Of a stretch of DNA of 64,000 nucleotides, positions 4,316 to 61,718 are shown piece after piece; the first letter of the stretch is position 1, and every line of letters begins with the position of its first letter. The translations under genes were made by a program, and so were the position numbers. The DNA comes from Candidatus Saccharimonadota bacterium (lineage in GTDB: Bacteria; Patescibacteriota; Saccharimonadia; Saccharimonadales; 2-12-FULL-41-12): positions 10,444-74,443 of the forward strand of contig JALHOM010000001.1 of the NCBI GenBank assembly GCA_022842995.1, read 5' to 3'. The notes beneath the pieces are model-generated. The model was not told where the DNA came from, searched no databases, and saw only the letters and a program-made list of their open reading frames with translations.

Positions 4316-7300
4316 CTAACCCCGAAGCGAAATTTCACCTTCAGCACCGGCATCATTACTGATCTCGGTGTGACCTGTTGGCGAAGGTCCATCTATAGAA
4401 GCCTGGGCATGGGGGGTCTGGGGACCATAACTCATCGAATTTATATCTGTCATAGGTCGATTATTATTTGATACGACAGATGAATCGTTATCTAAATCTG
4501 TGGCATTAGATGACGGACTGTAGGGTCGCCGTGGAATGTCATTCGTAAATCGACTAGGCCCAGATGCATCAGAGTTACTTGGTGTCATCATGTCCGAAGC
4601 GCCAAGATTATCTCTCAAGCTTTGGCCTTGATCATTAAGACCGTCCGAAGACTGTCCAGTTGCATCTTGAACCCCTGCTTGATACTGTTGCCCCGAAAAC
4701 TGGCCCGAATCATCCATAGGACTAGAGGCGGTAGACCGATATTCAGAAAGCTGACCCGAGGCTGGATTTAATGTGGGATCTACCGACTGCGTTGCGTCTG
4801 CCATTGGCGCAGGATAAGGATTAGCCTGTGGCTGAGCCACAGGAGCTTGAGCGGCAGGATATGGCGGGGGCACTGGACCTTGAGTATCTTTCTTGGCCAA
4901 CCACTGGTCTAAGAATGAGCCGCCGGCGCCACCTGGATCTTGTGAAGCAAATGGATCGCCCGCTCCAGCCGGTGGCACACCTGGCTGTTGTTGACCCGTC
5001 GCATCGGTGTCGGTGTCCATACGACTAAAGATTTCCTTCTCTACCACCTGTCGAGGACGGCCGTATTTGGCTGCCGACAACTGCTTCAGGGCATCACCCA
5101 ACTCTTTATTCGGCGTACCTAATGGTGCGATTGTTGCCATACTAAATGGCTGCGTTGGCACTCCACCAATGAGAGTGCGAACGATCGTGTTATAGTTCGG
5201 AATTCTGAGCAGATCATCACCGTCAAACAGTGGCTGGAAGTAGCGCGACAGTACGTCGACATCATTCTGGCCAATACGAAACGCCACTGTCGTACCAATA
5301 TTTCCAAATACCGCGTCACGAATTTCTTCGGTTAACTGCGTCGTAAACTGGTTAGCCACTACCAAGTTAAGCCGGTATTTTCGAGCCTCAGACATAATTG
5401 TCGCAAACGAATCGGTCGAGAAGTTCTGGAACTCATCGACGTACAAACAGAAGTCCACGCGCTGATCTTCGGGGATATTTGCTCGGCTCATAGCAGCCGC
5501 TTGGAACTTCATGACAAAGATCATGCCCAGCAGCTTAGAGTTAAGTTCACCGGTCCGCCCTTTGCTGAGATTAACGATCAAAATCTTCTTATTATCCATG
5601 ATGTCACGCAGATCAAACGAACTATCAATCTGACCGATGATATTACGCATCATACCGTTGCTTAAGAACGCACCGAACTTACTCACGAACCAACTAACCA
5701 CCTCGCCGAAGTCGTTCGATCTCTTTGATTGAGGCATTTCTTTATACCAAAAATCCAAGACATTACGGTCAGTGACGTACTGAAGCTTAGACTTAACATA
5801 ATCGTCGTCTCTAAAGAGTTTCGGAATATCGATAAAGCTACCACCATCAGGGCCAGCCATAACCGTCAGAGCCGCCATCCTGAATAAGTGTTCATAGCGC
5901 GGGCCAATAATTCCCTGCCTTTGCGGGTCATACAGCTTATAAAGGACGTTGATAACTTCCTGAATAACGAAGTCTTTCTCGTCGTCGTTCTCGGCTTCAA
6001 AGATATTGAGACCAAGTGGATAGTCGGTGTCCGCGGGACAGAAATATATAACGTCTTCAGTTCGTTCCTTCGGAACCATAGAAATAAGTGTTTCTGCCGT
6101 ATCGCCGTGCGGATCAATAAATGCAAAACCATTCCCCATTAACATGTCCTGGAGCGCGAGGTTTTCGAGGAACGTAGACTTACCTGTACCTGTCTGACCA
6201 ACAACATAGATATGTCGTTGACGATCCTGGAGCGCCAGTCGAATCGGCTTTTTTATGCCACGGAATAAGTTGTAACCCAGCAATAATCCGTGTTCAGGCA
6301 CATTTCGAGGTCCATCTACTTGCTTGGAATCTTGGCGTGTCAGCTGCGATGTCGGAATATCTTCTTGTTGTGGAAAATGAAACAGCGTCGCTAATTCTAC
6401 GGAGTTTAAGATGTTCTTATTATGATGTTGAGGGAACAAACGTAGTATATAAGCTGTTGTAAATTCCTCTATATTTCCCGATGCAGACCACTTAAAGCCG
6501 TTTTTGCCCGGTGCATCAAATAGTGAGAAGCTCGCTACAACGTTGCTCAATATATCTTGAGCTCGTTGGTGAATATTAGAGGACACGACAATTCGAAGTG
6601 TCGTCTCGAAACCGGGGTGCCTTGTCTTGTCATCAATAGAATCAAGGATCTGCTGCTCATTTGCCGAAAGCTCTTTACCCGGACTACTGCCACCAGAACC
6701 TTTATCTTCAGGCGGCTTCGTGAGAGCATAAGCTACCTGCCCCATCCACCAGAAAATCTGAGAGACACCTTTTTTCTGCTTCTCACCTTTTCGCTTCTTG
6801 CTGGCGTGACCACTTGCCGATTTAGTCCATGAACTCTTTGCTGGTCGCACCAAGATCTGAATACCAACTCCGTCCTGTTTATCAAGTGCAGAAAGGGCGT
6901 TTAGAACAGACTGCATCGGATCACGCTTAATGTCTCTATACGTGGCAATCGGGTAAGCGTACTTCTCTTTCAGTGTTAGCTCACCACCGACAACCCCCGT
7001 TATGCCACCAACTTTATTGAACAAGTTATAATCAGCAACTTCTTCAAGTCGTGCCGAAGGATATGCACTTACCACCGCCTGCTTAACAACTTCAATTAAG
7101 GTTAGCGGCACCGACGCATAAAGATTTACCACACCATGTAAACATACTATTTCAAAGCCAATATGTCTTTGCCCATAGAAACTACTCTTGAAACCTGGCT
7201 GCGTCGTGCTCGAAATAATGTTGTAAATAAATTCTGCTTTTGAGATATTCTCATCTGTTACATCACGAATATCTCGTGAACCTATGTCAGTATCATCGCT

Positions 7301-7456
7301 AGGTGGCGGCAGATGGATTAGCAGCGTAACCATTTTTAGGCCACGCTCATAATTCTTCTGTTCTCTTAAGACTTTTCGAGACTGAAAGAAAATAATTGGG
7401 GCAACAATCAGCACCAACACCAGGACAAAAACAGCAAAGAATATTAATATGCCCAT
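4316..7456 (-). CDS. VirD4/TraG/TraD-like (FtsK-HerA superfamily) P-loop ATPase with an N-terminal TM helix, a ~400-aa non-ATPase N-terminal region and a ~260-aa low-complexity Q/P/S/D/G-rich C-terminal tail
   Basis: Walker A is VVGQTGTGKST, followed by FIDPHGD. Walker B is LYVDEFQNF, followed by RKYRLNLVVANQ, which fits the coupling-protein arrangement. N-terminal TM is ILIFFAVFVLVLVLIVAPIIFF. Confidence 0.6.
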   Translation of the reverse strand: MGILIFFAVFVLVLVLIVAPIIFFQSRKVLREQKNYERGLKMVTLLIHLPPPSDDTDIGSRDIRDVTDENISKAEFIYNIISSTTQPGFKSSFYGQRHIGFEIVCLHGVVNLYASVPLTLIEVVKQAVVSAYPSARLEEVADYNLFNKVGGITGVVGGELTLKEKYAYPIATYRDIKRDPMQSVLNALSALDKQDGVGIQILVRPAKSSWTKSASGHASKKRKGEKQKKGVSQIFWWMGQVAYALTKPPEDKGSGGSSPGKELSANEQQILDSIDDKTRHPGFETTLRIVVSSNIHQRAQDILSNVVASFSLFDAPGKNGFKWSASGNIEEFTTAYILRLFPQHHNKNILNSVELATLFHFPQQEDIPTSQLTRQDSKQVDGPRNVPEHGLLLGYNLFRGIKKPIRLALQDRQRHIYVVGQTGTGKSTFLENLALQDMLMGNGFAFIDPHGDTAETLISMVPKERTEDVIYFCPADTDYPLGLNIFEAENDDEKDFVIQEVINVLYKLYDPQRQGIIGPRYEHLFRMAALTVMAGPDGGSFIDIPKLFRDDDYVKSKLQYVTDRNVLDFWYKEMPQSKRSNDFGEVVSWFVSKFGAFLSNGMMRNIIGQIDSSFDLRDIMDNKKILIVNLSKGRTGELNSKLLGMIFVMKFQAAAMSRANIPEDQRVDFCLYVDEFQNFSTDSFATIMSEARKYRLNLVVANQFTTQLTEEIRDAVFGNIGTTVAFRIGQNDVDVLSRYFQPLFDGDDLLRIPNYNTIVRTLIGGVPTQPFSMATIAPLGTPNKELGDALKQLSAAKYGRPRQVVEKEIFSRMDTDTDATGQQQPGVPPAGAGDPFASQDPGGAGGSFLDQWLAKKDTQGPVPPPYPAAQAPVAQPQANPYPAPMADATQSVDPTLNPASGQLSEYRSTASSPMDDSGQFSGQQYQAGVQDATGQSSDGLNDQGQSLRDNLGASDMMTPSNSDASGPSRFTNDIPRRPYSPSSNATDLDNDSSVVSNNNRPMTDINSMSYGPQTPHAQASIDGPSPTGHTEISNDAGAEGEISLRG

Positions 7457-7459
7457 AGC

Positions 7460-7855
7460 CTAATTGCCCTCTGAAACCTTAATATCTTTGTTGTATCGTT
7501 TCTTCAAGTAATCGGCCTTCGCCCTACTAATCTCTTGTTGCTGGATGAAGGGGTTGGTAGCGGTTCTGGCCGCGATTTCCTTCAGGTGATTAACCCACTC
7601 CTTCTCGATAACATCTACATCGTTGGCTTCTGGCGGTATAGAACTGATCTGCTGCGCAAGCTTTGGCGTTACCGCAAAAGGGTCAGCGGGCGCCACGGCC
7701 GGCGGAACCTGGGCAGGAGCAGCAGGATCAAGCGGTGGAGCCATAGAAGGTATTGCTGGTGCTGCAGCAGGAGCGCTTGAGTCTAGCGCACCATCATTAT
7801 CTTGGGGCGTGTTCGAACCTGGGACTGGTAAAAAACTATTTTGATCCATTATCAA
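7460..7855 (-). CDS. small Pro/Ala-rich protein, translationally coupled upstream partner of the ATPase (3-bp gap)
   Basis: The ORF ends 3 bp before the ATPase start codon. The central region is P/A-rich low complexity; the C-terminal ~45 residues are charged and helical. Confidence 0.45.
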   Translation of the reverse strand: MIMDQNSFLPVPGSNTPQDNDGALDSSAPAAAPAIPSMAPPLDPAAPAQVPPAVAPADPFAVTPKLAQQISSIPPEANDVDVIEKEWVNHLKEIAARTATNPFIQQQEISRAKADYLKKRYNKDIKVSEGN

Positions 7856-7999
7856 ATACTAAACTGCTCATGCTTCTACTTCGTTAGGCGCGTTCAAACA
7901 AGTGCGCATTCTTCCCTGGATTATAGCACATATCACAATAAAAATCAGCATCCTGACAAGTGCGTAAATTCAGATCACAAAGAAGGATAAAACTGACCT

Positions 8000-8329
8000 T
8001 CAGAATTTATTGATATAGATGTAGGAAATAAGCATTAAAAGGCCGAGCAGCAGTATATCGCCTAATACGATTCCGCCACTTGATTGGAACAATAAAATCA
8101 AAGTTAAGCCAACCGCAAAGACGATGGATATAGTACGATGTTTCGTACTTGGGGTGCTCAGAAAAAATAATTTCATAAAAAGCGATGCAAATAAAAATCC
8201 AGCTATGAATACAAGCAAGACAGGGACCATCAATAGGCCGACGGGCAAATCTCTTGGATCGGTTAGCCCAAAAAATACGACTCCAATAGCCACTGTTGCT
8301 ACTAGTAGCATGGACATCTTAACTATCAC
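8000..8329 (-). CDS. small integral membrane protein (3 predicted TM helices)
   Basis: 109-aa ORF with three hydrophobic segments. Confidence 0.45.
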   Translation of the reverse strand: MIVKMSMLLVATVAIGVVFFGLTDPRDLPVGLLMVPVLLVFIAGFLFASLFMKLFFLSTPSTKHRTISIVFAVGLTLILLFQSSGGIVLGDILLLGLLMLISYIYINKF

Positions 8330-8880
8330 GATCTTTCTTGTCCTTTACGACTACTTTAATCTATATTCAAGACATAATCGTTTGAGAAATATCATACATA
8401 TTAAAAAAACAAAAACGCCTCGTGTATTAGTGTACCCTTTTTCAAGACGTTTTTGCTTACAAATTGTGGATTGATATTTAGAGGCCGGGACGATAAAACC
8501 GCTCCATTAAATAAACTATTTAGCGCTTATCGTCGACCGAGCCTTGACTGACCGCTCATCATTGCTTTAAAGGCAACTTTGAGCGTTATTTTTAAATGTT
8601 TTTATGTTCAACATTCATGCTCGTATACTAGCGCATTATGCCGCTTATGTCAATCCTTATTATAGACTTATCAACAACGTTCATCTGTAAATTAAAGGCG
8701 ATTCTATGTTGTGATCAATACAATATTAATTTTTTGCTATTGATATAATCCTCATTTAGACATAGGTTAAACTATAAAAAAGTATATCCATCGTGAATAA
8801 CTTTTCAATAAAATCCTAGCCTCATAAGGCCCAAATTTTCCAGACCCGAACAACTGATCCTGATGCTCATTTTGTTAAAT

Positions 8881-8910
8881 CTGTGTCGCGATCGCGACAC
8901 AGATTTAATA
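8881..8910. repeat. 30-bp perfect palindrome AAATCTGTGTCGCGATCGCGACACAGATTT in a long non-coding region
   Basis: Read directly from the sequence. It equals its own reverse complement and is centred on CGATCG. Confidence 0.9.
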
Positions 8911-9783
8911 TTTTTTGCTGATTCGATCATAGACTTTAGCAACCGAATCAAATTCTCAGGACTACATGATAATTAATTTTAATCCTGTATTTGTTTATTA
9001 AGCATATACATTAATCAATATTTTATCTATGGCGTTCGGCTTTAAGCGCGATATAACCAAGTATTTTCATGTTATCAATATCATGATGGTCTTTGTATCG
9101 ACATTTATAAATAGAAGTCGACCAATAACATTTTCTAGCAGGAAAAATTATCCGACCAACATTTCGCATAAAAATTCCTAAGAATGATTCATGGCCATTC
9201 AAATCCCCTCACCCGCCAAGTCTTCCAGCTAGGGCATCTTCCAAGCCTATCCTTATTTTTTGAAACCACCTTTTTACTAAAACGAGTGATTTTGCCATGC
9301 AGCATCGAGCCTGAATTTCATGAACAGGAAACCATAAAGATACAGTCGATAAGCTTTATTGGGTTAATTAAACTACGCGATTACATATTAATTTCATGGA
9401 TTATGAATGAGGTTTAACATAAACATTTTGAGCACTCATAAGCATAAAGTTTATGATTCAAAATATTGCATTTTTTGGCATACATTTATTGAATAAATAA
9501 TCTGTGGAAAACTTATGCACATATTGTACTCATTTCTTTATTGACAGGTTAAATCTCTCACAGTAATATGGGGTTAGCACTTGAATAAAAAAAGTGCTCA
9601 AAAACAAAAACGTCTCTGTTAACAACGGCTTCTCGCAAGCCGTTGTTCCATAACACTGGGACGTTCGATAACAGAAAATTATAAATAAAAACCGCAGAAA
9701 ATAACCCCGCAGCATAAGCTACGGGGTTGTTTTTATATTAAGGTAATTGTTCTTTTGCAAACCTGGGGTATACTTTCAGACAC

Positions 9784-11304
9784 ATGAAAACCAGATCCAA
9801 AATTCAGACAATCATCGAAGCATCTAATGGCGGTGTGATAGTCGATATTGAATGTCATATTTCAAATTCCTTACCAAACATCGTAATTGTTGGTTTTGCC
9901 AATCGATCGGTCGACGAAGCCAAAGAACGCATCCGCGGAGCTTTAGCCTCCAGCAATATCCAATTACCGAAAAAACGAATTACCGTCAATTTAGCTCCTG
10001 CCGACCTACCTAAAGAAGGTTCCTATTTTGATCTTCCGATCACTCTTGGCATTTTAACTGAGAGCGGGATTATTTCTCCAGGACCAATCAAAGACACCGC
10101 TTGTTTTGGAGAAATTGGACTCGACGGGTCGATACGCCCTGTTCGCGGAATCATCGGAAAAATCCTAAATGCGCAGAAACTCGGCTTTAATAAATTCCTT
10201 ATTCCCGAAGACAACTGCGATCAGGCGCGGCTGATACCTGGCGTTACTATTATTACGGCCAATACAATAAAAGGACTGGTCTCGTGCCTTAATGATCAAT
10301 CTAGTATATATGCGATCGATACTGGCGAAGGCAAACTACCTATGACTCCCCCCGCCAACCAAAATAGCGCAAACTCGATTGACGACGTTATAGGCCAACA
10401 GCACGCCAAACGTGCTCTCGTGATTGCAGCGGCCGGACACCACAACATCATGCTCAGTGGCCCACCGGGTGCGGGAAAATCAATGCTAGCAAACACTATT
10501 ACAAGTATCATGCCTCCCCTGACCTTAACCGAGATTCTCGAAACAACCCATATTCACAGCCTGGCTAGCCGAAACTACGACCAGATCATCCATGAGCGAC
10601 CGGTTCGCTCGCCTCATCATAGTGCCAGCGCAATCGCCGTAATCGGCGGCGGACAAAACCCGAGACCGGGTGAAATTAGCCTAAGTCACAACGGTGTTTT
10701 AGTTTTTGACGAATTTCCGGAGTTCAATCGGCAAGTCATCGAAGCCCTTCGGCAACCGCTGGAAGATAAGGTTATCAGTGTTGCCAGGGCCAAAGATACC
10801 GCCAACTTCCCTGCCGATTTTCTTCTCATAGCTACCGCTAACCCCTGCCCCTGCGGCTTTTTTGGAACAAGCAAAGAGTGTTCTTGCCTCCCATATCAGA
10901 TCACAAATTACCAACGGAAAATCTCTGGACCAATAATCGACCGTATCGACCTTTACGTCGATGTCGACGAGGTAGAGCACGCCTCTATATTGAAGACGCA
11001 GGCCTCTGAGCAAGCTCCCCGACTGTCCACACAGATAAAGGACGCTCGCGACAGGCAATTATCTAAGCGAGGAAAATTAAACTCGAGATTAAGCGGAAAA
11101 GACTTCCGAGACAGCAATCTACTTGCAGCCGAGGCCAAGAAGTACCTTGACGACGCCAGCAACCCCCTCGGACTGTCCGCCAGAAGTTATATAAGAGTTC
11201 TACGCATTGCTCGGACGATAGCCGATCTTGAGTTGTCAGAGAAGATTGAAGAACATCACGTCGCTGAAGCCCTGCAGTATCGGAAACGACATCAGGCACT
11301 ATAG
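9784..11304 (+). CDS. comM: YifB/ComM family Mg-chelatase-like AAA+ ATPase (competence protein ComM)
   Basis: N-terminal Lon-protease-like domain, Walker A GPPGAGKS, and a C-terminal Mg-chelatase subunit ChlI-like region. The whole-length pattern is typical of ComM. Confidence 0.85.
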   Translation: MKTRSKIQTIIEASNGGVIVDIECHISNSLPNIVIVGFANRSVDEAKERIRGALASSNIQLPKKRITVNLAPADLPKEGSYFDLPITLGILTESGIISPGPIKDTACFGEIGLDGSIRPVRGIIGKILNAQKLGFNKFLIPEDNCDQARLIPGVTIITANTIKGLVSCLNDQSSIYAIDTGEGKLPMTPPANQNSANSIDDVIGQQHAKRALVIAAAGHHNIMLSGPPGAGKSMLANTITSIMPPLTLTEILETTHIHSLASRNYDQIIHERPVRSPHHSASAIAVIGGGQNPRPGEISLSHNGVLVFDEFPEFNRQVIEALRQPLEDKVISVARAKDTANFPADFLLIATANPCPCGFFGTSKECSCLPYQITNYQRKISGPIIDRIDLYVDVDEVEHASILKTQASEQAPRLSTQIKDARDRQLSKRGKLNSRLSGKDFRDSNLLAAEAKKYLDDASNPLGLSARSYIRVLRIARTIADLELSEKIEEHHVAEALQYRKRHQAL

Positions 11305-12495: not shown

Positions 12496-12530
12496 TAAAA
12501 AACCCTGGCATAATCCAGGGTTTTTTATTT
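12496..12530 (+). terminator. rho-independent terminator of the infC-rpmI-rplT operon
   Basis: Stem AAAAACCCTGG / CCAGGGTTTTT with loop CATAAT, followed by TTTTATTTT. Confidence 0.6.
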
Positions 12531-12627
12531 TGTCAGACTATCTATAAGCCGGGTTTTGTTCCCGCACCTTTTGATGACTTATTTTTAAACTTTGTAAAAA
12601 AGGATTAAATCAGCAAAAGGTGCGGGA

Positions 12628-13090
12628 GCCAATCATCTATCTAGTCCATCAATTACTCAATGGATCAAGCGGCTTTTACGGTCTGACTTCGGCGGGAAAC
12701 CTTTGAAGACAGACCTCCTTGCAACAGACAGGGTTTACCTACTGATCATGTCACCATGATCTGTTGTGGGCTCTTACCCCACTCTTTTCACCCTTACCCT
12801 CACACCCCTGCACCCAATCTCAGCCAGCAAGCAAAGCTTGCTGCGCCAGATTGTAGGGCTATTGCTACGTCAAAGCCTTGCGAGATTCAGTCGACGTATT
12901 CAAATACGTCTCCTTCGAATTTCTCAGACTTTTCCTAGCACTAGCCTCTTGCAGAGGCGTGAGGGCGGTATTGTTTCTGTGGCACTTTCCCTAGAGTTAC
13001 CTCTGGTTGCCGTTAGCAACTGTCATTCCCTACGTTGCCCGGACTTTCCTCCCGTGCCTTGTAAGGCACGGGCGATTGGCCGATAGTCTA
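12628..13090 (-). ncRNA. rnpB: RNase P RNA, bacterial type (rnpB)
   Basis: The minus strand contains the universally conserved P4 motif GAGGAAAGTCCGGGC, preceded by a P3 hairpin (CCCGTGCCTTACAAGGCACGGG). It also contains GGGTAAGGGTGAAAAGAGTGGGGTAAGAGCCCAC, matching E. coli AGGUAAGGGUGAAAGGGUGCGGUAAGAGCGCACC. The 5' GCCAATC and 3' GATTGGC can form P1. The overlapping + ORFs (12756-12938, 12766-13086) are spurious. Confidence 0.7.
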
Positions 13091-13128
13091 ACTCTCCTAG
13101 TATACCACCCGAAATTTACGATAGTTGT

Positions 13129-18018: not shown

Positions 18019-19878
18019 CTACAGGGAGGTTTTACTGACGCGCATTTTCGTCTCGTTGCGCACCGTTTTAAAGAAGTCCTCTATCTGAAGCTCTGGGTGC
18101 GTCGAGATAACGACCAAATCTTGTCGAACACGTGGCGTAACTCGCCCACTGGCAATCTCTTTTTCGCCAAGTACCAGCGTATACGGCACCTTCCAGACCT
18201 CGGCATCGCGAATTTTTTTGCCAACCGATTCGTTAGAGTTATCTACCTGAACTCGGATACCGAACTGCTTAGCAGTTTCTATGACTTTGCCGGCGAATTC
18301 CAAAGTCTCAGCTTCTTGGTTAACAGTAATCAGCCTAACTTGCTCAGGTGCAAGCCAAATTGGAAACTTCCCGGCGCTATGCTCAATATAAATAGACAAA
18401 AAGCGTTCAATTGACCCCATAATTGCAGCATGGACCATCAAAATTCTTTCTTCCTCACCAGCTTCATTGGTACAGTTCAGATCAAAGCCTTCTGGCTGGT
18501 TGAAATCAAGCTGGATTGTTGCCACCTGCCACACACGACCGATAGCGTCTTTGGCCATAAAATCAATTTTCGGACCATAAAATGCCGCTTCACCGACGCC
18601 CTTTAGGAAGTTATCTCCGACCTTGCTCGTAATAAGGCTCAGTAGTTTATCTTCGGCATTCAGCCAGTCAGCTTCTGTGCCAGAATACGCATTCATATTT
18701 TCAGGATCGTGAGTCGAGAATCGTACTTGTAGCTCAAACCCGCAAACCCCGTAAAACCGATCAATTATGTCCCAAATCTTCATAGCCTCGTCTTCAACTT
18801 GACTGTTTCGGCAAAAAACATGAGCATCATCTTGGGCAAATGATCGAACACGGCTCAAACCAGAAAGCTCACCGGTCTGCTCATCGCGGTAACAAGTAGT
18901 CGTTTCGCGGTACCTAATGGGTAGCTCCCGGTAAGATCGTTGTCGGGAGGCGTAAAGTTGCGTGTGATGGGGGCAATTCATCGGCTTCATCGCAAATTCA
19001 TGTCCTTCACGCGTTGTAATCTTGAAAAGCTCTTCTTGAAACTTCGCCCAGTGGCCACTCTTCTCATACAAGTCTTTCTTGGTTATATGAGGGATTGAAA
19101 CCTCCTGATAGCCATATTCGTCACGCATTTCTTGCACAAATTCGTTCAGTTTGTTGCGCAATACCGTTCCTCTCGGTGTCCAAAGCGGTAAGCCAGGACC
19201 CACAAGATCTGAAAACGTAAACAAATCTAATTCCTGGCCCAACTTACGATGATCACGCTTCTTGGCTTCTTCCAACATCTCGAGGTGCGCCCGCAGTTCT
19301 TTAGGTGTTTTAAAAGCCACACCGTACAATCGTTGCATCTGCGGATTAGTCTCTTTACCGCGCCAATACGCACCGGCGACTCTCATAAGCTTGAATGCTC
19401 CAACCAACCCCGTATGTTCAACGTGCGGGCCCCGGCATAAATCGCAGAAATCGCCATTAGTATAGAAAGAAACGTTCTCAACCTTACTATCCCCACCAGC
19501 TTCAAGACCCAATTCAGCCGTATCTAAATCCTTCGCAACAGTGGTGCCTGCTCGCTTGAGGTCATTAAGCAACTCTTCTTTATACGGTTGCCCTGCCCCT
19601 TTAGCCCAGGCAATGGCCTCGTCAATTGGCTTTTCGGATCTTTCAAAAGGCTGCTTAGCGTCAATTACCCGCTTCATCTCACCTTCAATTTTGTCAAAGT
19701 CGTCTTCGCTGATCTTGGTCTCACCAAGGTCAATATCATAATAAAACCCGTTCTCCACCACTGGACCAACGCCTAATTTGGCACCCGGCCACAGAGTCGT
19801 GACGGCGGTCGCCATAATATGCGCCAAGCTGTGTCTCATCGCATATAGATACTGTTCGTCTGTTTGCTTCTCTGCCAT
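18019..19878 (-). CDS. thrS: threonine--tRNA ligase
   Basis: Second-additional domain HxxxH (RHSLAHIMATAV), class II aaRS core motifs and a C-terminal anticodon-binding domain. Length 619 aa. Confidence 0.9.
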   Translation of the reverse strand: MAEKQTDEQYLYAMRHSLAHIMATAVTTLWPGAKLGVGPVVENGFYYDIDLGETKISEDDFDKIEGEMKRVIDAKQPFERSEKPIDEAIAWAKGAGQPYKEELLNDLKRAGTTVAKDLDTAELGLEAGGDSKVENVSFYTNGDFCDLCRGPHVEHTGLVGAFKLMRVAGAYWRGKETNPQMQRLYGVAFKTPKELRAHLEMLEEAKKRDHRKLGQELDLFTFSDLVGPGLPLWTPRGTVLRNKLNEFVQEMRDEYGYQEVSIPHITKKDLYEKSGHWAKFQEELFKITTREGHEFAMKPMNCPHHTQLYASRQRSYRELPIRYRETTTCYRDEQTGELSGLSRVRSFAQDDAHVFCRNSQVEDEAMKIWDIIDRFYGVCGFELQVRFSTHDPENMNAYSGTEADWLNAEDKLLSLITSKVGDNFLKGVGEAAFYGPKIDFMAKDAIGRVWQVATIQLDFNQPEGFDLNCTNEAGEEERILMVHAAIMGSIERFLSIYIEHSAGKFPIWLAPEQVRLITVNQEAETLEFAGKVIETAKQFGIRVQVDNSNESVGKKIRDAEVWKVPYTLVLGEKEIASGRVTPRVRQDLVVISTHPELQIEDFFKTVRNETKMRVSKTSL

Positions 19879-20399
19879 ATTTGCTCCTTATAAACATAAA
19901 AAACGCCCCGAAAAAAGCTAAAAAAAGCTACCTTTCGACGCGCCTCGGCCCCGCCTTCACTGAAGATTCGACGGATGATCCCATCGGAATTTCAGAGAGT
20001 TCAGAGAGGTTCCACCTTGGCTGATACTCTTGTCGCCTCTGTTATCGTACATCGGCTGACCGCTCAAACGAAGCTCCACGGTTGGTGAGTCCGTATCTCC
20101 ACTTACTGTTAAGTATACCGCTATTCAAACTGAATCTCACTACAAAAACCTAAAAAATGAAAAGATCGCGTCTTCTCGCAATTAGACACGATCGTTTCTG
20201 CAAAACACCCGGCAAAACTTGCCTCGCTACCTATGATAGCAAGGTTAGTACTATAAGGCTAGTATTGATTTGTTGTTTTATGCACATTTACCCCACTACT
20301 TATCCACGTGTGTTTAATGAAACCATTGATACGATTTATACCACATATGGTTATTTAACTAAAAGCTACATTTGTGGTATCTTAATATAGTTCATTTGT

Positions 20400-20476: not shown

Positions 20477-20865
20477 TGATAAGACCTCCTTAAAACTTTT
20501 TAAGAGGTCTTTTTTAATGCCTCACCCCTGTTATATACTGACCTCAAATTGACTTTTTTGCTGTTTTGTGTTAACATAAGCGTGTTAAACAAGGTTTTTG
20601 TGTGAGTAACACCTCAAGCAATGTCTTGGAGGAATTTGCGCTCTTTTACGAAGAGCTCGAGAAATCCGCCAAGCCAGCTTCACGGATCAAGCGTTAAACT
20701 AGAGACTGACGCTTCTCCACCAGGGTAAAACCACTATAATCAACCGTTGCTAACGCGCATTGGAGTCTAGTTCATGGACTCTTTTTTTATGCCAAATTAT
20801 CGGTATCCATAGCGCTTATACACAGAAACCCACAGGCTTATCCACTAGCTTTTTGAACAGCTGTA

Positions 20866-20881
20866 TGTCAATATATTGACA
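20866..20881. promoter_or_regulatory. 16-bp perfect palindrome TGTCAATATATTGACA overlapping the nrdR start codon (NrdR-box-like operator)
   Basis: The core CAATATATTG matches the published NrdR-box core CwAtATaTwG. The palindrome ends on the A of the ATG. Confidence 0.45.
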
Positions 20882-21285
20882 TGGTTTGCATACATTGCGG
20901 TTCAAAAACAAAGACCACTAATTCTCGCCGGGTTGCCCGGCACAACCAAACATGGCGTCGTCGCCAGTGCCTCGTTTGCCAGGCTATATTCACCACCCGG
21001 GAGGCGCTTGACTACGATTCGGCGATCCGCGTAAAATCTGCCGATAAAGCTCTTGAGAGCCTGTCTCGCGACCGTTTGTTCATAGATATATTCCGAAGCC
21101 TCTCGCACAGAAAAACGGCTCTCAGCGACGCCAGTGCCCTCACAGACACAATCTTGAGCGCCCTCATTGCCGATTCAACAAACGGAGTCATCACCACCCA
21201 AGAAATCGTCCACAAATCGACCGAAACGCTACAACGCTTCGATACGGTCTCTGCCACTGTTTATACAGCCCACCACGCGGATTAG
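20881..21285 (+). CDS. nrdR: transcriptional repressor NrdR (zinc ribbon plus divergent ATP-cone)
   Basis: MVCIHCGSK...RRRQCLVCQAIFTTRE compares with E. coli NrdR RRRRQCLVCNERFTTFE. Confidence 0.75.
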   Translation: MVCIHCGSKTKTTNSRRVARHNQTWRRRQCLVCQAIFTTREALDYDSAIRVKSADKALESLSRDRLFIDIFRSLSHRKTALSDASALTDTILSALIADSTNGVITTQEIVHKSTETLQRFDTVSATVYTAHHAD

Positions 21286-33802: not shown

Positions 33803-33840
33803 TACCACACTTTTTGAACGATCGTTCAAAAAGTGTGGTA
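33803..33840. repeat. 38-bp perfect palindrome TACCACACTTTTTGAACGATCGTTCAAAAAGTGTGGTA (copy A of a palindrome family; arms 11 + CGATCG + 11)
   Basis: Read directly; self-complementary. It lies 12 bp upstream of the ATG of the 157-aa gene and in the ndk upstream region. It contains divergent TTGAAC hexamers. Confidence 0.9.
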
Positions 33841-33851
33841 CTATTTTTCAT

Positions 33852-34325
33852 ATGGACAGGAAGTTGACAGGAACACAATATATTTTGCTTGCGCTTATTC
33901 CCTATACCAAAGCAAACTTGCAGTTTAGCTTTGCCAGAAAGTCATTCTTTAGAGAAGTAGCGATCAGGGATCATGTTCACGAAAAAGCAGCTCGCAGTGG
34001 GTTTTACCGAGCAATGAAACAAGGGCTCATAGAAGAAGACGAAAAGGGCCAAATAAGACTCACCAACAAAGGTAAGCGTCGAATAGCGACATACACTTCT
34101 CGCTACCTACCGAACAGCAACCTTATGGTAATATTCGATATCGCCGAAGCAGAGCGAGCAAAGCGTTCTCACGTCAGAGCACTCCTCAAAGAATTATCTT
34201 TCAAGCAAGTTCAAAAGAGCGTATGGGTCAGCGAGTACGATCATCGATCTTTAGTGCAAATGGAAGTCGAACACCTGAAGCTGCAGGACTCCATCCAAGT
34301 ATTCGAATGCTATCGCCTATCATAA
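33852..34325 (+). CDS. putative DNA-binding regulator (wHTH-like N-terminus) with a C-terminal Cas2-like motif
   Basis: The C-terminal ~65 aa (LMVIFDIAEAERAKRSHVRALLKELSFKQVQKSVWVSEY...VFECYRLS) follows the Cas2-like pattern hhhhYDI...R..h...L...G.R.Q.SVF..., which is also seen in PaaX-type regulators. The N-terminus is basic and helical. The gene is exactly bracketed by palindromes A and B. Confidence 0.5.
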   Translation: MDRKLTGTQYILLALIPYTKANLQFSFARKSFFREVAIRDHVHEKAARSGFYRAMKQGLIEEDEKGQIRLTNKGKRRIATYTSRYLPNSNLMVIFDIAEAERAKRSHVRALLKELSFKQVQKSVWVSEYDHRSLVQMEVEHLKLQDSIQVFECYRLS

Positions 34326-34329
34326 ATTT

Positions 34330-34367
34330 TTACTACACTTTTTGAACGATCGTTCAAAAAGTGTAGT
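34330..34367. repeat. 38-bp perfect palindrome TACTACACTTTTTGAACGATCGTTCAAAAAGTGTAGTA (copy B), 5 bp after the stop of the 157-aa gene and 118 bp upstream of the recombinase gene
   Basis: Read directly. Differs from copy A at one symmetric position. A TAGTAT -10-like hexamer sits at its right edge. Confidence 0.9.
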
Positions 34368-34484
34368 ATTGTTGGTTATTCGATTGTTTGTTGCTCGGGG
34401 GGTTGGAGTATAAAAGATTTTGGATAGAAGCTGTGGAGGTCTTGTAAATGAGGTGGTTTGGTTGGGGTGAGATAGAATAAGTAC

Positions 34485-61501: not shown

Positions 61502-61547
61502 CTCAAAATTTGTACTACACTTTTTGAACGATCGTCACAATTTTGAG
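61502..61547. repeat. palindrome family copy C: half-site TACTACACTTTTTGAACGATCG nested in an imperfect 46-bp palindrome (CTCAAAATT...AATTTTGAG)
   Basis: Read directly. The left arm is identical to copy B; the right arm is replaced. Confidence 0.8.
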
Positions 61548-61578
61548 GTATAAATTTACGTGTTAACAGATACAGGCG

Positions 61579-61614
61579 TGTTCCACTTTTTTAACGATCG
61601 TTCAAAAAGTGGAA
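61579..61614. repeat. palindrome family copy D: GTTCCACTTTTTTAACGATCGTTCAAAAAGTGGAAC (36 bp, one mismatch)
   Basis: Read directly. Same core and CGATCG centre as copies A and B. Confidence 0.85.
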
Positions 61615-61718
61615 CTGGTTGTGGTTAGGGTTTTTCTGGCTTATTTTGGCGATAAGCGTGTAGCGAATCTTTGATCGAATATGGACCGGGATAAGATAAC
61701 GCGGTTACCCTGCCGAGA

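What the first reader, a model, noticed from the sequence alone, without database searches (positions are those of the whole stretch)
8330..9783. 1.45-kb AT-rich non-coding gap with a 30-bp perfect palindrome and stable stem-loops, in an otherwise tightly packed genome
Intergenic spacers elsewhere in the window are mostly under 300 bp. This stretch has no ORF over 77 codons and no convincing coding signal.

It contains:
- the perfect palindrome AAATCTGTGTCGCGATCGCGACACAGATTT at 8881-8910. It shares the CGATCG centre with the 34-kb palindrome family.
- an 11-bp-stem hairpin AACAACGGCTT-CTCGC-AAGCCGTTGTT at 9619-9645.
- a terminator-like hairpin AACCCCG-N12-CGGGGTT followed by GTTTTTAT at 9701-9735, just upstream of comM.

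Possibilities are an unannotated structured ncRNA, a decayed gene, an element junction next to the coupling-ATPase module, or a regulatory region for comM.
Basis: seen in the sequence. Interest (0 to 1): 0.55.

Follow-up and report, generated by a model that had tools for sequence, protein, structure and literature searches.

The report
Two unannotated RNA genes in Saccharibacteria
The "empty" 1.45-kb gap holds two conserved structured RNAs absent from the Rfam RNA-family database: a small RNA gene, and a leader RNA in front of a secretion-system ATPase operon. Junk-like AT-rich DNA, which carries the eye-catching palindrome, separates them.

Summary
The gap is real. It is the largest stretch in the window with no ORF and no known RNA gene, and it has the lowest GC. 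The window comes from a Saccharibacteria (TM7) genome. The gene order [VirD4-like coupling ATPase operon (-)] – gap – [comM (+)] recurs in about 20 genome bins and about 75 metagenome contigs.

Only the two ends of the gap are conserved.

- **Right end, + strand, ~9576-9736: a small RNA gene of about 160 nt.** It has a TTGACA-17-TAATAT promoter, two hairpins, invariant A-rich single strands and its own terminator. A DnaA-box-type motif (TTATGCACA, 9513-9521) lies at a fixed distance upstream.
- **Left end, - strand, ~8618-8400: a structured leader RNA of about 220 nt.** It has its own promoter, strong base-pair covariation and an intrinsic terminator. It sits just upstream of the membrane-protein/VirD4-like operon, which suggests attenuator or riboswitch-like control.

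Neither RNA matches any Rfam 15 family. The two are linked in 72 of 73 informative loci.

The roughly 850-bp middle, including the 34-bp palindrome (8875-8908), is unconserved and is missing in "compact" relatives.

The region is not an origin of replication, and I found no sign of a pseudogene, an element junction or a comM regulatory region. The functions of both RNAs are inferred, not shown.

The parts
8400..8618 (-). Leader RNA ('block B RNA'), about 220 nt. It runs from the inferred transcription start (~8618) to the end of the terminator U-run (~8400), upstream of the 109-aa ORF that starts at 8329.
   Evidence: Covariance model R1 matches 8622-8474 (-) at 109.9 bits, E 1e-23, but the window sequence is itself in the seed alignment. 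nhmmer finds one copy in each of 85 loci. The structure pairs in 97.1% of cells, with 151 double-change cells, against 35-47% paired in slid controls. A G.U pair conserved in 69 of 72 sequences fixes the strand.
8625..8653 (-). Sigma-70-type promoter of the leader RNA: TTGACA-17-TAGTAT.
   Evidence: Found by the promoter scan. TTGAC and TAGTAg/TAGTAt are conserved at the same place in most relatives.
8593..8617 (-). P0, the 5' hairpin of the leader. In relatives it reads GUAAGUC-AAAAACAAAA-ACUUAC. In the window it reads AUGAAUGUU-GAACAUAAA-AACAUUU.
   Evidence: Fold of the window sequence. The stem changes sequence while keeping the pairing (GTAAGT/ACTTAC in relatives, AATGTT/AACATT in the window). 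The A-rich loop 10-mer is exact in 29 of 72 leaders, and the 9-mer AAAACAAAA is in 42 of 72.
8553..8585 (-). P1: CGCUC [variable inner hairpin, loop UAAAG] GAGCG.
   Evidence: The inner stem has a different sequence in different loci but still pairs (alignment).
8545..8552 (-). Nearly invariant junction GGUCAGUC(AAAG) between P1 and P2.
   Evidence: The run GAGCGGUCAGUC is invariant or at least 90% conserved in 72 sequences.
8482..8544 (-). P2, a long interrupted stem: GGACGrUAAGCGCU - AU-rich loop - AGCGGAUUUAyCGUCC.
   Evidence: 14 pairs, 11 of them with compensatory changes (for example AU:35 against GC:34 at one pair).
8400..8458 (-). Intrinsic terminator of the leader: stem plus GUUUUUGUUUUUUU, lying about 70 nt before the ORF start codon.
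   Evidence: By my count from the per-locus list, about 50 of 81 loci have a hairpin plus U-run terminator starting within about 60 nt of P2. An ORF of at least 70 aa (73-145 aa, mostly 105-135) follows the leader in nearly all loci.
8660..9500 (.). Hypervariable AT-rich spacer between the two divergent promoters.
   Evidence: No nucleotide or translated similarity to the spacers of about 47 other loci. Even relatives with 74% identity in the flanking genes align only at the two RNA blocks. The spacer is absent in 'compact' loci.
8875..8908 (.). 34-bp perfect palindrome with a T-run on its + strand side. It is specific to this lineage.
   Evidence: It is present in the 99.5%-identical contig L202, which ends inside it.
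9503..9521 (.). DnaA-box-type motifs: TGTGGAAAA (9503-9511, inverted, 8/9) and TTATGCACA (9513-9521, 9/9).
   Evidence: A perfect TTATNCACA is present in 80 of 94 upstream regions, mostly 35-39 nt upstream of the -35 element.
9541..9569 (+). Sigma-70-type promoter of the sRNA: TTGACA-17-TAATAT.
   Evidence: TTGACA and TAAGAT are conserved in essentially all loci.
9576..9736 (+). sRNA gene ('block A'), about 160 nt, from the inferred transcription start to the end of the terminator T-run.
   Evidence: Covariance model R2 matches 9567-9654 (+) at 101.4 bits, E 8e-21, but the window sequence is itself in the seed alignment. The block is 88-99% identical over about 80 nt to loci whose ComM is only 52-62% identical. 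The fold has z = -8.1.
9575..9599 (+). sRNA hairpin 1: UAGCAC-UUGAAUAAAAAAA-GUGCUC.
   Evidence: 5 pairs, all intact in 90 sequences, with GCAC/GUGC changing to GUAC/GUAC compensatory changes and G-U wobbles.
9599..9611 (+). Invariant single-stranded linker CAAAAACAAAAAC.
   Evidence: Part of this run was fixed by the search pattern used, but it is equally invariant in the 18 loci found through ComM.
9621..9647 (+). sRNA hairpin 2, AACAACGGCUU-CUCGC-AAGCCGUUGUU.
   Evidence: 10 pairs. One G-C pair is swapped to C-G in 7 sequences, and there are 19 U-G wobbles. In 'short-type' relatives this hairpin is followed directly by a U-run and acts as the terminator.
9703..9736 (+). Intrinsic terminator of the sRNA.
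   Evidence: Relatives have terminators of different sequence at the equivalent place.

Best explanation
The gap is not one element. It is a divergent control region, conserved across Saccharibacteria, that carries two RNA genes pointing away from each other. A dispensable, fast-evolving AT-rich spacer lies between them.

**(1) Leader RNA, - strand.** A sigma-70-type promoter (8653-8625) drives a structured leader of about 220 nt. It consists of P0, P1, the invariant junction GGUCAGUC, the long P2 stem, and then an intrinsic terminator. It ends about 70 nt before the first gene of the operon [3-TM membrane protein – Pro/Ala-rich protein – VirD4/TraD-like coupling ATPase]. The most likely mechanism is transcription attenuation: a ligand or protein that binds the conserved P1–junction–P2 core decides whether RNA polymerase stops at the terminator or reads on into the operon.

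**(2) Small RNA, + strand.** A promoter (9541-9569), with a DnaA-box-type site 20-28 nt upstream of the -35 element, drives an independent sRNA of about 160 nt. It has hairpin 1 with an A-rich loop, an invariant CAAAAACAAAAAC linker, an invariant hairpin 2, an A/C-rich tail and its own terminator. It most likely acts in trans, either by binding a protein through its A-rich single strands or by pairing with U-rich targets. Its transcription is probably modulated by DnaA.

**(3) Spacer.** The spacer and its palindrome are specific to this lineage and are not part of the conserved system.

**Shown in silico:**
- conservation of both RNAs;
- base-pair covariation;
- the transcribed strand of each;
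- promoters and terminators;
- linkage of the two RNAs;
- absence from Rfam.

**Inferred:** that either RNA is transcribed, that the leader attenuates, that the sRNA acts in trans, and that DnaA binds the box.
For: **Synteny.** About 18 genome bins show the coupling-ATPase operon (-), an ORF-free gap of 0.6-1.6 kb at GC 0.21-0.42, and comM (+).

**Conservation.** Only two islands are conserved, at 8490-8690 and 9510-9650.

**sRNA.**
- Promoter, DnaA-type box, two hairpins and a species-specific terminator align in all loci.
- 99.8% of pair cells form a standard pair, against 21-49% in slid controls.
- 14 double-change cells are seen against 0.8 in shuffles, and the many G-U wobbles fix the + strand.
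- The variable 5' segment co-varies with the 3' flank of hairpin 2 (matched -2.58 against mismatched -1.86 kcal/mol; 0 of 5000 permutations).
- It stands independent of comM: ComM follows in 60 of 77 loci, and tmRNA follows in 5.

**Leader.**
- 19 pairs, 13 with compensatory changes; 97.1% paired; 151 double-change cells against 6-36 in slid controls.
- A G.U pair conserved in 69 of 72 sequences fixes the - strand.
- The promoter is conserved.
- A terminator is found in roughly 50 of 81 loci, and an ORF of at least 70 aa (mostly 105-135) follows the leader in nearly all loci.
- The Pro/Ala-rich protein and the coupling ATPase lie downstream in about 70 loci.

**Linkage.** 72 of 73 sRNA loci with enough flank carry the leader upstream in divergent orientation. 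The one exception is explained by a 2.6-kb insertion in its sister locus.

**No Rfam match.** Nothing matched in the window at E up to 5, nor in ten other representative loci.

**Spacer.** It is unconserved and is absent in 28 compact loci.
Against: - There are no expression data, so both transcription starts and both RNA 3' ends are inferred from consensus promoters and terminators.
- I found no alternative antiterminator pairing for the leader. P2 strands and terminator halves do not co-vary in the tested antiterminator pairings (permutation p = 0.38 and 0.64).
- About a third of loci lack a terminator detectable by my crude scan.
- The leader could therefore be a free-standing sRNA that merely sits upstream of the operon.
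- sRNA covariation is thin, because the sequence is almost invariant. My metagenome search pattern also fixed part of the linker and of hairpin 2.
- The DnaA box is identified only by its consensus.
- The loci were collected through ComM or through the sRNA itself. I therefore cannot say how often the leader occurs without the sRNA.
Confidence: 0.75

Rival explanations
1. The - strand 'leader' is a free-standing small RNA that ends at its terminator. It does not regulate the downstream operon in cis. The operon has its own promoter, possibly for a leaderless mRNA.
For: Most loci have a strong terminator. No co-varying antiterminator was found. Leaderless-type promoters seem to be used in these genomes, as -10 boxes abut the comM start codons.
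Against: By my estimate from the positions listed, only about 20-70 nt separate the terminator from the start codon in most loci. No second conserved promoter is visible there. The leader always lies on the same strand as the same operon and directly upstream of it.
Confidence: 0.2
2. The gap is, or contains, a replication origin or a DnaA-titrating locus (like datA or DARS).
For: The region is AT-rich and flanked by divergent genes. A perfect DnaA box with an inverted 8/9 neighbour lies at 9503-9521 and is conserved in 80 of 94 loci.
Against: Only 1-2 perfect boxes occur per gap, so there is no cluster. GC skew is negative across all 64 kb with no sign change. Compact relatives leave only about 200 nt between the two RNAs. 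The box sits at a fixed distance from a promoter, as an operator would. The same motif lies upstream of nrdR and tRNA-Val.
Confidence: 0.03
3. The spacer (about 8660-9500) is the decayed remnant of one or more genes.
For: In some lineages ordinary genes sit between the leader and the sRNA. By my reading of the translated sequences (no family search was run), these look like argS and smpB in L199, a histidine-phosphatase-like ORF in L009 and a DUF218-like ORF in L196. Spacer length is bimodal, about 200-290 nt against about 600-1200 nt.
Against: No tblastx or blastn similarity links the window's spacer to any other spacer or to any of the inserted ORFs. The 77-aa ORF has no homologue and no Pfam hit. 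Decay beyond recognition cannot be excluded.
Confidence: 0.3
4. The sRNA is a cis-acting leader or attenuator of comM.
For: In the window its terminator ends 48 nt before the comM start codon. comM follows the sRNA in 60 of 77 loci.
Against: 17 of 77 loci have another neighbour, and tmRNA on the opposite strand follows in 5. In short-type relatives hairpin 2 is itself the terminator. comM has its own -10-like box next to its start codon. The link to the leader RNA (72 of 73) is tighter than the link to comM.
Confidence: 0.05
5. The 34-bp palindrome is itself functional in this species. It could be an operator for a dimeric regulator, or a + strand terminator for a lineage-specific transcript in the spacer.
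For: It is perfect and far beyond chance. The consensus scan flags it as terminator-like, with a following T-run. It is retained in a second sample of the same species.
Against: No other lineage has anything comparable in its spacer. There is one copy in the window. No convincing promoter lies upstream: the scan found 7 promoter-like sites against 9.4 expected. The single hit in viral contigs is at the level I would roughly expect by chance and has unrelated flanks.
Confidence: 0.2

Closest known systems
Transcription-attenuating riboswitches and protein-binding leaders of Gram-positive bacteria (for example purine or SAM-I riboswitches, or PyrR- and ribosomal-protein-type leaders)
   Same: A promoter, then a conserved multi-stem RNA whose stems co-vary and whose junctions are invariant, then an intrinsic terminator, then the regulated operon on the same strand.
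   Different: It matches no Rfam family. No co-varying antiterminator was detected. The ligand or binding protein is unknown. The regulated genes, a membrane protein and a VirD4-like coupling ATPase, are not a metabolic pathway that would hint at a ligand.
Rho-independent-terminated trans-acting bacterial sRNAs (architecture of Hfq-type sRNAs, and of protein-sponge RNAs such as CsrB/RsmZ)
   Same: A stand-alone gene with its own promoter and terminator, conserved single-stranded segments between hairpins, and a terminal hairpin with a U-tail.
   Different: The sequence is conserved far more than is usual for sRNAs: about 60 nearly invariant nucleotides across a class whose ComM proteins are only 50-60% identical. 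The conserved single strands are (A)nC repeats, not GGA or a typical seed. No partner protein or target is known, and whether these genomes encode Hfq or ProQ was not tested.
sRNA decoys of antiterminator proteins that share a binding motif with the regulated leaders (EutX in Enterococcus and Rli55 in Listeria, which sequester the ANTAR protein EutV; recalled from my own knowledge)
   Same: An sRNA and an adjacent leader carry the same short motif. AAAAACAAAA is in the sRNA linker and in the P0 loop of 29 of 72 leaders. Across about 2.35 Mb of both strands there are 221 occurrences in total, roughly half of them the sRNA copies themselves.
   Different: This is an analogy only. No ANTAR-type two-hexaloop motif is present, no binding protein is identified, and the window's own P0 loop is a diverged version (GAACAUAAA).
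DnaA-regulated promoters (dnaA autoregulation and nrd genes in E. coli and B. subtilis; established knowledge)
   Same: A perfect TTATNCACA lies at a fixed distance upstream of the -35 element. In many loci a weaker second match (TTAACCAYA-like, noted by eye) lies about 21 nt downstream, next to the -35. The same motif also lies upstream of nrdR in this window.
   Different: The regulated gene is an sRNA. Binding was not tested, and another regulator with a similar site cannot be excluded.

Membership tests
Any Rfam 15 RNA family | Match to a curated covariance model at or near its gathering score | tested here: not met
   There are no gathering-level hits in 8330-9783. At E up to 5, hits fall only on the terminator, the palindrome and (SNORA40, E 3.6) the sRNA hairpins. 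Each scores less than half its family's gathering score. Ten other loci that carry both RNAs gave one hit, isrJ at E 0.51 and below threshold.
Independent sRNA gene (window 9576-9736, + strand) | Own promoter and own intrinsic terminator, conserved in position | tested here: met
   TTGACA-17-TAATAT at 9541-9569 and the terminator at 9703-9736. Both are present in relatives, with species-specific terminator sequences.
Independent sRNA gene (window 9576-9736, + strand) | Secondary structure supported by covariation, with the strand assignable | tested here: met
   99.8% of cells paired. 4 pairs show compensatory changes, in 14 cells against 0.8 in shuffles. 28 G-U wobble cells would be A.C mismatches on the other strand. 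The extended stem co-varies. Caveat: covariation is low because the sequence is nearly invariant.
Independent sRNA gene (window 9576-9736, + strand) | A discrete transcript is detected | not testable with these tools
   No transcriptome data were available. A TM7x transcriptome preprint states that no small RNAs had been validated at that time (doi 10.1101/2022.03.25.485537).
Riboswitch / cis-acting attenuator leader (window 8618-8400, - strand) | Lies in the 5' untranslated region, on the same strand as a conserved downstream operon | tested here: met
   The G.U evidence fixes the - strand. An ORF of at least 70 aa (mostly 105-135) follows the leader in nearly all loci. The Pro/Ala-rich protein and the coupling ATPase lie downstream in about 70 loci.
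Riboswitch / cis-acting attenuator leader (window 8618-8400, - strand) | Conserved structured core with co-varying stems and invariant junction nucleotides | tested here: met
   13 of 19 pairs show compensatory changes, and GAGCGGUCAGUC is invariant.
Riboswitch / cis-acting attenuator leader (window 8618-8400, - strand) | Expression platform: a terminator or a structure that sequesters the ribosome-binding site | tested here: inconclusive
   A terminator lies between P2 and the ORF in roughly 50 of 81 loci. The rest were not resolved by my simple scan.
Riboswitch / cis-acting attenuator leader (window 8618-8400, - strand) | Mutually exclusive antiterminator pairing | tested here: not met
   A matched-versus-mismatched duplex test of P2 strands against terminator halves gave p = 0.38 and 0.64 for the two antiterminator pairings. 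One control pairing gave p = 0.0065, which I set aside as a probable effect of relatedness. Other pairing partners were not tested.
Riboswitch / cis-acting attenuator leader (window 8618-8400, - strand) | Specific ligand or protein binding | not testable with these tools
   This needs in-line probing or binding assays.
Chromosomal replication origin (oriC) | Cluster of DnaA boxes with an AT-rich unwinding element | tested here: not met
   The gap has one perfect box and four one-mismatch matches. Relatives have 1-2 perfect boxes each.
Chromosomal replication origin (oriC) | GC-skew sign change | tested here: not met
   Skew is negative in every 2-kb bin of the 64-kb window.
Pseudogene / decayed gene | Residual similarity to an intact protein gene in relatives or in databases | tested here: not met
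   tblastx and blastn against about 47 spacers found nothing in the spacer itself. The 77-aa ORF has no homologue and no Pfam hit.
Mobile-element junction | The flanking module is variable or accessory, with integrase, transposase or terminal repeats | tested here: not met
   The coupling-ATPase operon and comM are syntenic in all relatives. No repeats flank the gap. The palindrome is a single copy.
DnaA-controlled promoter | TTATNCACA box at a conserved position relative to the promoter | tested here: met
   80 of 94 loci have a perfect box, mostly 35-39 nt upstream of the -35 element (28 nt in the window). Binding by DnaA was not tested.

The most novel reading that the evidence does not exclude
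The leader and the sRNA form one regulatory circuit that is new for the candidate phyla radiation. The leader is a new class of riboswitch or protein-dependent attenuator that controls the VirD4-like coupling-ATPase operon. The divergently encoded sRNA, which is ultra-conserved and preceded by a DnaA-type box, carries the same A-rich motif as the leader's P0 loop. It would titrate the factor that acts on the leader, and so couple expression of the secretion or DNA-translocation ATPase to replication or cell-cycle state in these host-dependent epibionts.
Probability: 0.15. Interest if true: 0.8.

Novelty: new member of a known kind. Interest (0 to 1): 0.6.

Why it matters
Saccharibacteria and other Patescibacteria have tiny, tightly packed genomes, and almost nothing is known about how they regulate their genes. 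A 2022 TM7x transcriptome preprint states that no small RNAs had been validated at that time.

This region yields two candidates with strong comparative support:
- one of the most sequence-conserved non-coding elements I saw in the class, an sRNA preceded by a DnaA-type operator;
- a structured leader in front of the VirD4-like coupling-ATPase operon.

Genetic tools (natural transformation and transposon sequencing) now exist for cultivated Saccharibacteria. If those strains carry the two RNAs, which I could not check, both are directly testable.

The result also shows that the visually striking palindrome is not the conserved feature.

Tried and rejected
1. **Rfam.** Scans of the window and of ten other loci found no family for either RNA.
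2. **oriC or a DnaA-box cluster.** Rejected: there is no cluster and no GC-skew switch.
3. **One long ncRNA across the gap.** Rejected:
   - the two promoters are divergent;
   - each RNA has its own terminator;
   - the middle is unconserved;
   - compact loci lack the middle altogether.
4. **Pseudogene in the spacer.** There is no similarity to any other spacer, to the ORFs inserted in other lineages, or to 5.8 billion proteins.
5. **Antiterminator between P2 and the terminator.** The resemblance between terminator stems and P2 stems that I saw by eye (UACYGY motifs) did not survive a permutation test.
6. **Base pairing between the sRNA loops or linker and the leader's P2 loop or junction.** No matched-versus-mismatched signal (p = 0.24-0.28).
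7. **Second copies in the window.** Neither RNA has one. Only weak hits with E above 0.05 appeared.
8. **Palindrome as part of the 34-kb palindrome family or of a repeat.** Rejected. The one 18-mer match in viral contigs has unrelated flanks.
9. **Identities considered from memory for the sRNA** (SRP RNA, 6S RNA, tmRNA piece, tRNA-like minihelix with CCA). Rejected on sequence and structure. The CCA after hairpin 2 is replaced by a U-run in short-type relatives.
10. **Literature searches.** Four searches found no description of either RNA.
11. **Family assignment of the operon's small proteins.** The 109-aa and 131-aa proteins have no Pfam or NCBIfam family. Homologues of the 131-aa protein are all unnamed.
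Full report
**Organism and setting.** ComM (9784-11304) is 46-62% identical to ComM encoded in Saccharibacteria/Saccharimonadales genome bins (L001-L022). No exact copy is on record. A 1,668-nt Logan contig (L202, SRR28154525) is 99.46% identical to window 7235-8902. Left of the gap, on the - strand, lie three genes:
- a 109-aa protein that looks like a 3-TM membrane protein from its sequence (8329-8000);
- a 131-aa Pro/Ala-rich protein (7855-7460);
- a 1046-aa VirD4/TraD-like type IV coupling ATPase (7456-4316).

To the right, on the + strand, are comM, infC and rplT.

**Check of the observation.** The gap, its low GC and the three hairpins are all real. The palindrome is 34 bp (8875-8908) and statistically extreme. 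A perfect DnaA-type box at 9513-9521 was missed.

**The gap is syntenic, and only its ends are conserved.** In about 18 genome bins the same order recurs: coupling-ATPase operon, an ORF-free gap of 0.6-1.6 kb at GC 0.21-0.42, then comM. A blastn search and an alignment of the gaps show only two conserved islands:
- block B, about 8490-8690;
- block A, about 9510-9650.

Block A is 88-99% identical over about 80 nt in genomes whose ComM is only 52-62% identical. A metagenome scan with a block A pattern added 120 loci, about 75 of them genuine.

**Block A is an sRNA gene on the + strand.** All loci align as follows:
- a GTTATrCACAGG motif (a perfect TTATNCACA in 80 of 94 loci, mostly 35-39 nt upstream of the -35 element);
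- TTGACA-17-TAAGAT (TAATAT in the window, 9541-9569);
- 5-6 nt, then hairpin 1, (UA)GCAC-UUGAAUAAAAAAA-GUGC(UC);
- the linker CAAAAACAAAAAC;
- about 8-20 variable nt;
- hairpin 2, AACAACGGCUUCUCGCAAGCCGUUGUU.

After hairpin 2 there are two forms. In the 'long' form, which the window has, it is followed by CCAU, about 50-60 nt of A/C-rich sequence and a species-specific terminator. In the 'short' form a U-run follows directly, so hairpin 2 is itself the terminator.

All 15 consensus pairs hold in 90 distinct sequences. 4 pairs show compensatory changes, and there are 28 G-U wobble cells that would be mismatches on the other strand. The variable segment 5' of hairpin 2 co-varies with its 3' flank (0 of 5000 permutations). 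The window RNA folds with z = -8.1.

The sRNA is not tied to comM. ComM follows it in 60 of 77 loci, and the 3' end of tmRNA on the opposite strand follows it in 5. comM has its own -10-like box next to its start codon.

**Block B is a structured RNA on the - strand.** In - strand sense the order is as follows:
- promoter TTGACA-17-TAGTAg (window 8653-8625);
- P0 hairpin (GUAAGUC-AAAAACAAAA-ACUUAC in relatives; window 8617-8593);
- P1, CGCUC[variable hairpin]GAGCG (8585-8553);
- the invariant junction GGUCAGUC;
- a long P2 (8544-8482);
- an intrinsic terminator (8458-8400);
- 20-110 nt further on, the start of an ORF of at least 70 aa (mostly 105-135).

Of 19 consensus pairs, 13 show compensatory changes. 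97.1% of cells are paired, against 35-47% when the partners are slid. There are 151 double-change cells against 6-36, and 0 of 500 shuffles reach any observed measure. A G.U pair conserved in 69 of 72 sequences, plus many other wobbles, assigns the - strand. I found a terminator between P2 and the ORF in roughly 50 of 81 loci. This is the layout of an attenuator or riboswitch-type leader for the coupling-ATPase operon.

**The two RNAs are linked.** 72 of 73 sRNA loci with at least 1300 nt of upstream sequence carry the leader, always divergent. The exception matches a sister locus in which what look like argS and smpB are inserted between the two RNAs. The exact 10-mer AAAAACAAAA of the sRNA linker also occurs in the P0 loop of 29 of 72 leaders. 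Across about 2.35 Mb of both strands it occurs 221 times in all, roughly half of them the sRNA copies themselves. Direct pairing between the two RNAs is not supported.

**The middle is not conserved.** The distance from the leader to the sRNA is bimodal: about 190-290 nt in 28 loci against about 600-1200 nt in most others (1000 in the window). The window's spacer has no nucleotide or translated similarity to any other spacer. Relatives with about 74% identity in the flanking genes align only at the two RNA blocks. A few lineages hold unrelated ordinary genes there. No other spacer has a palindrome beyond chance. The same-species contig L202 retains the palindrome and ends inside it. It has only one mismatch in 573 intergenic bases, against 8 in 1095 coding bases, which is too few to interpret.

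**What it is not.**
- *Not an origin.* There is no cluster of DnaA boxes and no GC-skew change anywhere in the window. DnaA-type boxes also precede nrdR and tRNA-Val, which fits a role as a transcription-factor site.
- *No detectable pseudogene*.
- *Not a member of any Rfam 15 family*.
- *Not described in the searchable literature*. A TM7x transcriptome preprint notes that there were no validated small RNAs.

**Mechanism, and how sure I am.** I hold with high confidence that both RNAs exist, on which strand each lies, what structure each adopts, and that they are linked. These conclusions rest on comparative evidence alone. The rest is inference:
- the leader regulates the operon by attenuation: about 0.55-0.6;
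- the sRNA acts in trans, through its invariant A-rich single strands and hairpin 2: about 0.6;
- the sRNA is under DnaA control: about 0.5;
- the spacer and palindrome are non-essential, lineage-specific DNA: about 0.7.

**Verdict.** The value lies in two new, strongly supported RNA families in Saccharibacteria. They are new members of known kinds (sRNA and cis-regulatory leader). The palindrome is not the conserved feature.

Noticed in passing
window 12529-13091 (-): The RNase P RNA (class A, 244.7 bits) spans 563 nt for a 367-position model, so it carries about 200 nt of insertions.
   Followed up: no
window 33803-33840, 34331-34368, 61506-61557, 61580-61615: A family of about 38-bp palindromes, TACyACACTTTTTGAACGATCGTTCAAAAAGTGTrGTA. 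Two perfect copies bracket the ORF at 33852-34325. They look like operators of a dimeric regulator. The arms are unrelated to the 8875-8908 palindrome.
   Followed up: partly
window 20278-20311 and 20805-20838: Pairs of DnaA-box-type motifs lie upstream of tRNA-Val (TTATGCACA, TTATCCACG) and upstream of nrdR at 20881-21285 (TTATACACA, TTATCCACT). This suggests DnaA acts as a transcription factor at several promoters.
   Followed up: partly
window 1-64000: GC skew is negative in every 2-kb bin, so the whole window lies on one replichore and contains neither an origin nor a terminus.
   Followed up: yes
window 9769-9786; the equivalent positions in L002-L019: -10-like hexamers (TATACT, TATAAT, TACAAT) lie only 2-9 nt upstream of the predicted comM start codons. 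Either the mRNA is leaderless or the start codons are mis-set.
   Followed up: no
L199 5176-7680; L090, L094, L117, L149, L177 downstream of the sRNA: In one lineage two ORFs that look like argS and smpB (judged by eye from the sequences) sit between the leader and the sRNA. In five metagenome loci the 3' end of tmRNA (opposite strand) follows the sRNA directly. The association of sRNA, smpB and ssrA may be worth a look.
   Followed up: partly
L202 (Logan SRR28154525) = window 7235-8902: A second sample of the same species (99.46% identity) has a contig that breaks inside the 34-bp palindrome. De Bruijn-graph assemblers often break at perfect palindromes. It confirms that the palindrome is not peculiar to this one assembly.
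   Followed up: yes
window 19879-20150 (-): About 270 nt of GC-rich sequence lies between thrS (18019-19878, - strand) and the next feature. No Rfam family matches at gathering score. A divergent T-box or another leader is possible.
   Followed up: no
window 8404-8420 (-) and 9599-9611 (+): In this genome the U-tail of the leader's terminator (GUUUUUGUUUUU) is perfectly complementary to the sRNA linker (AAAAACAAAAAC). The tails differ in other loci, so this is probably coincidence.
   Followed up: partly
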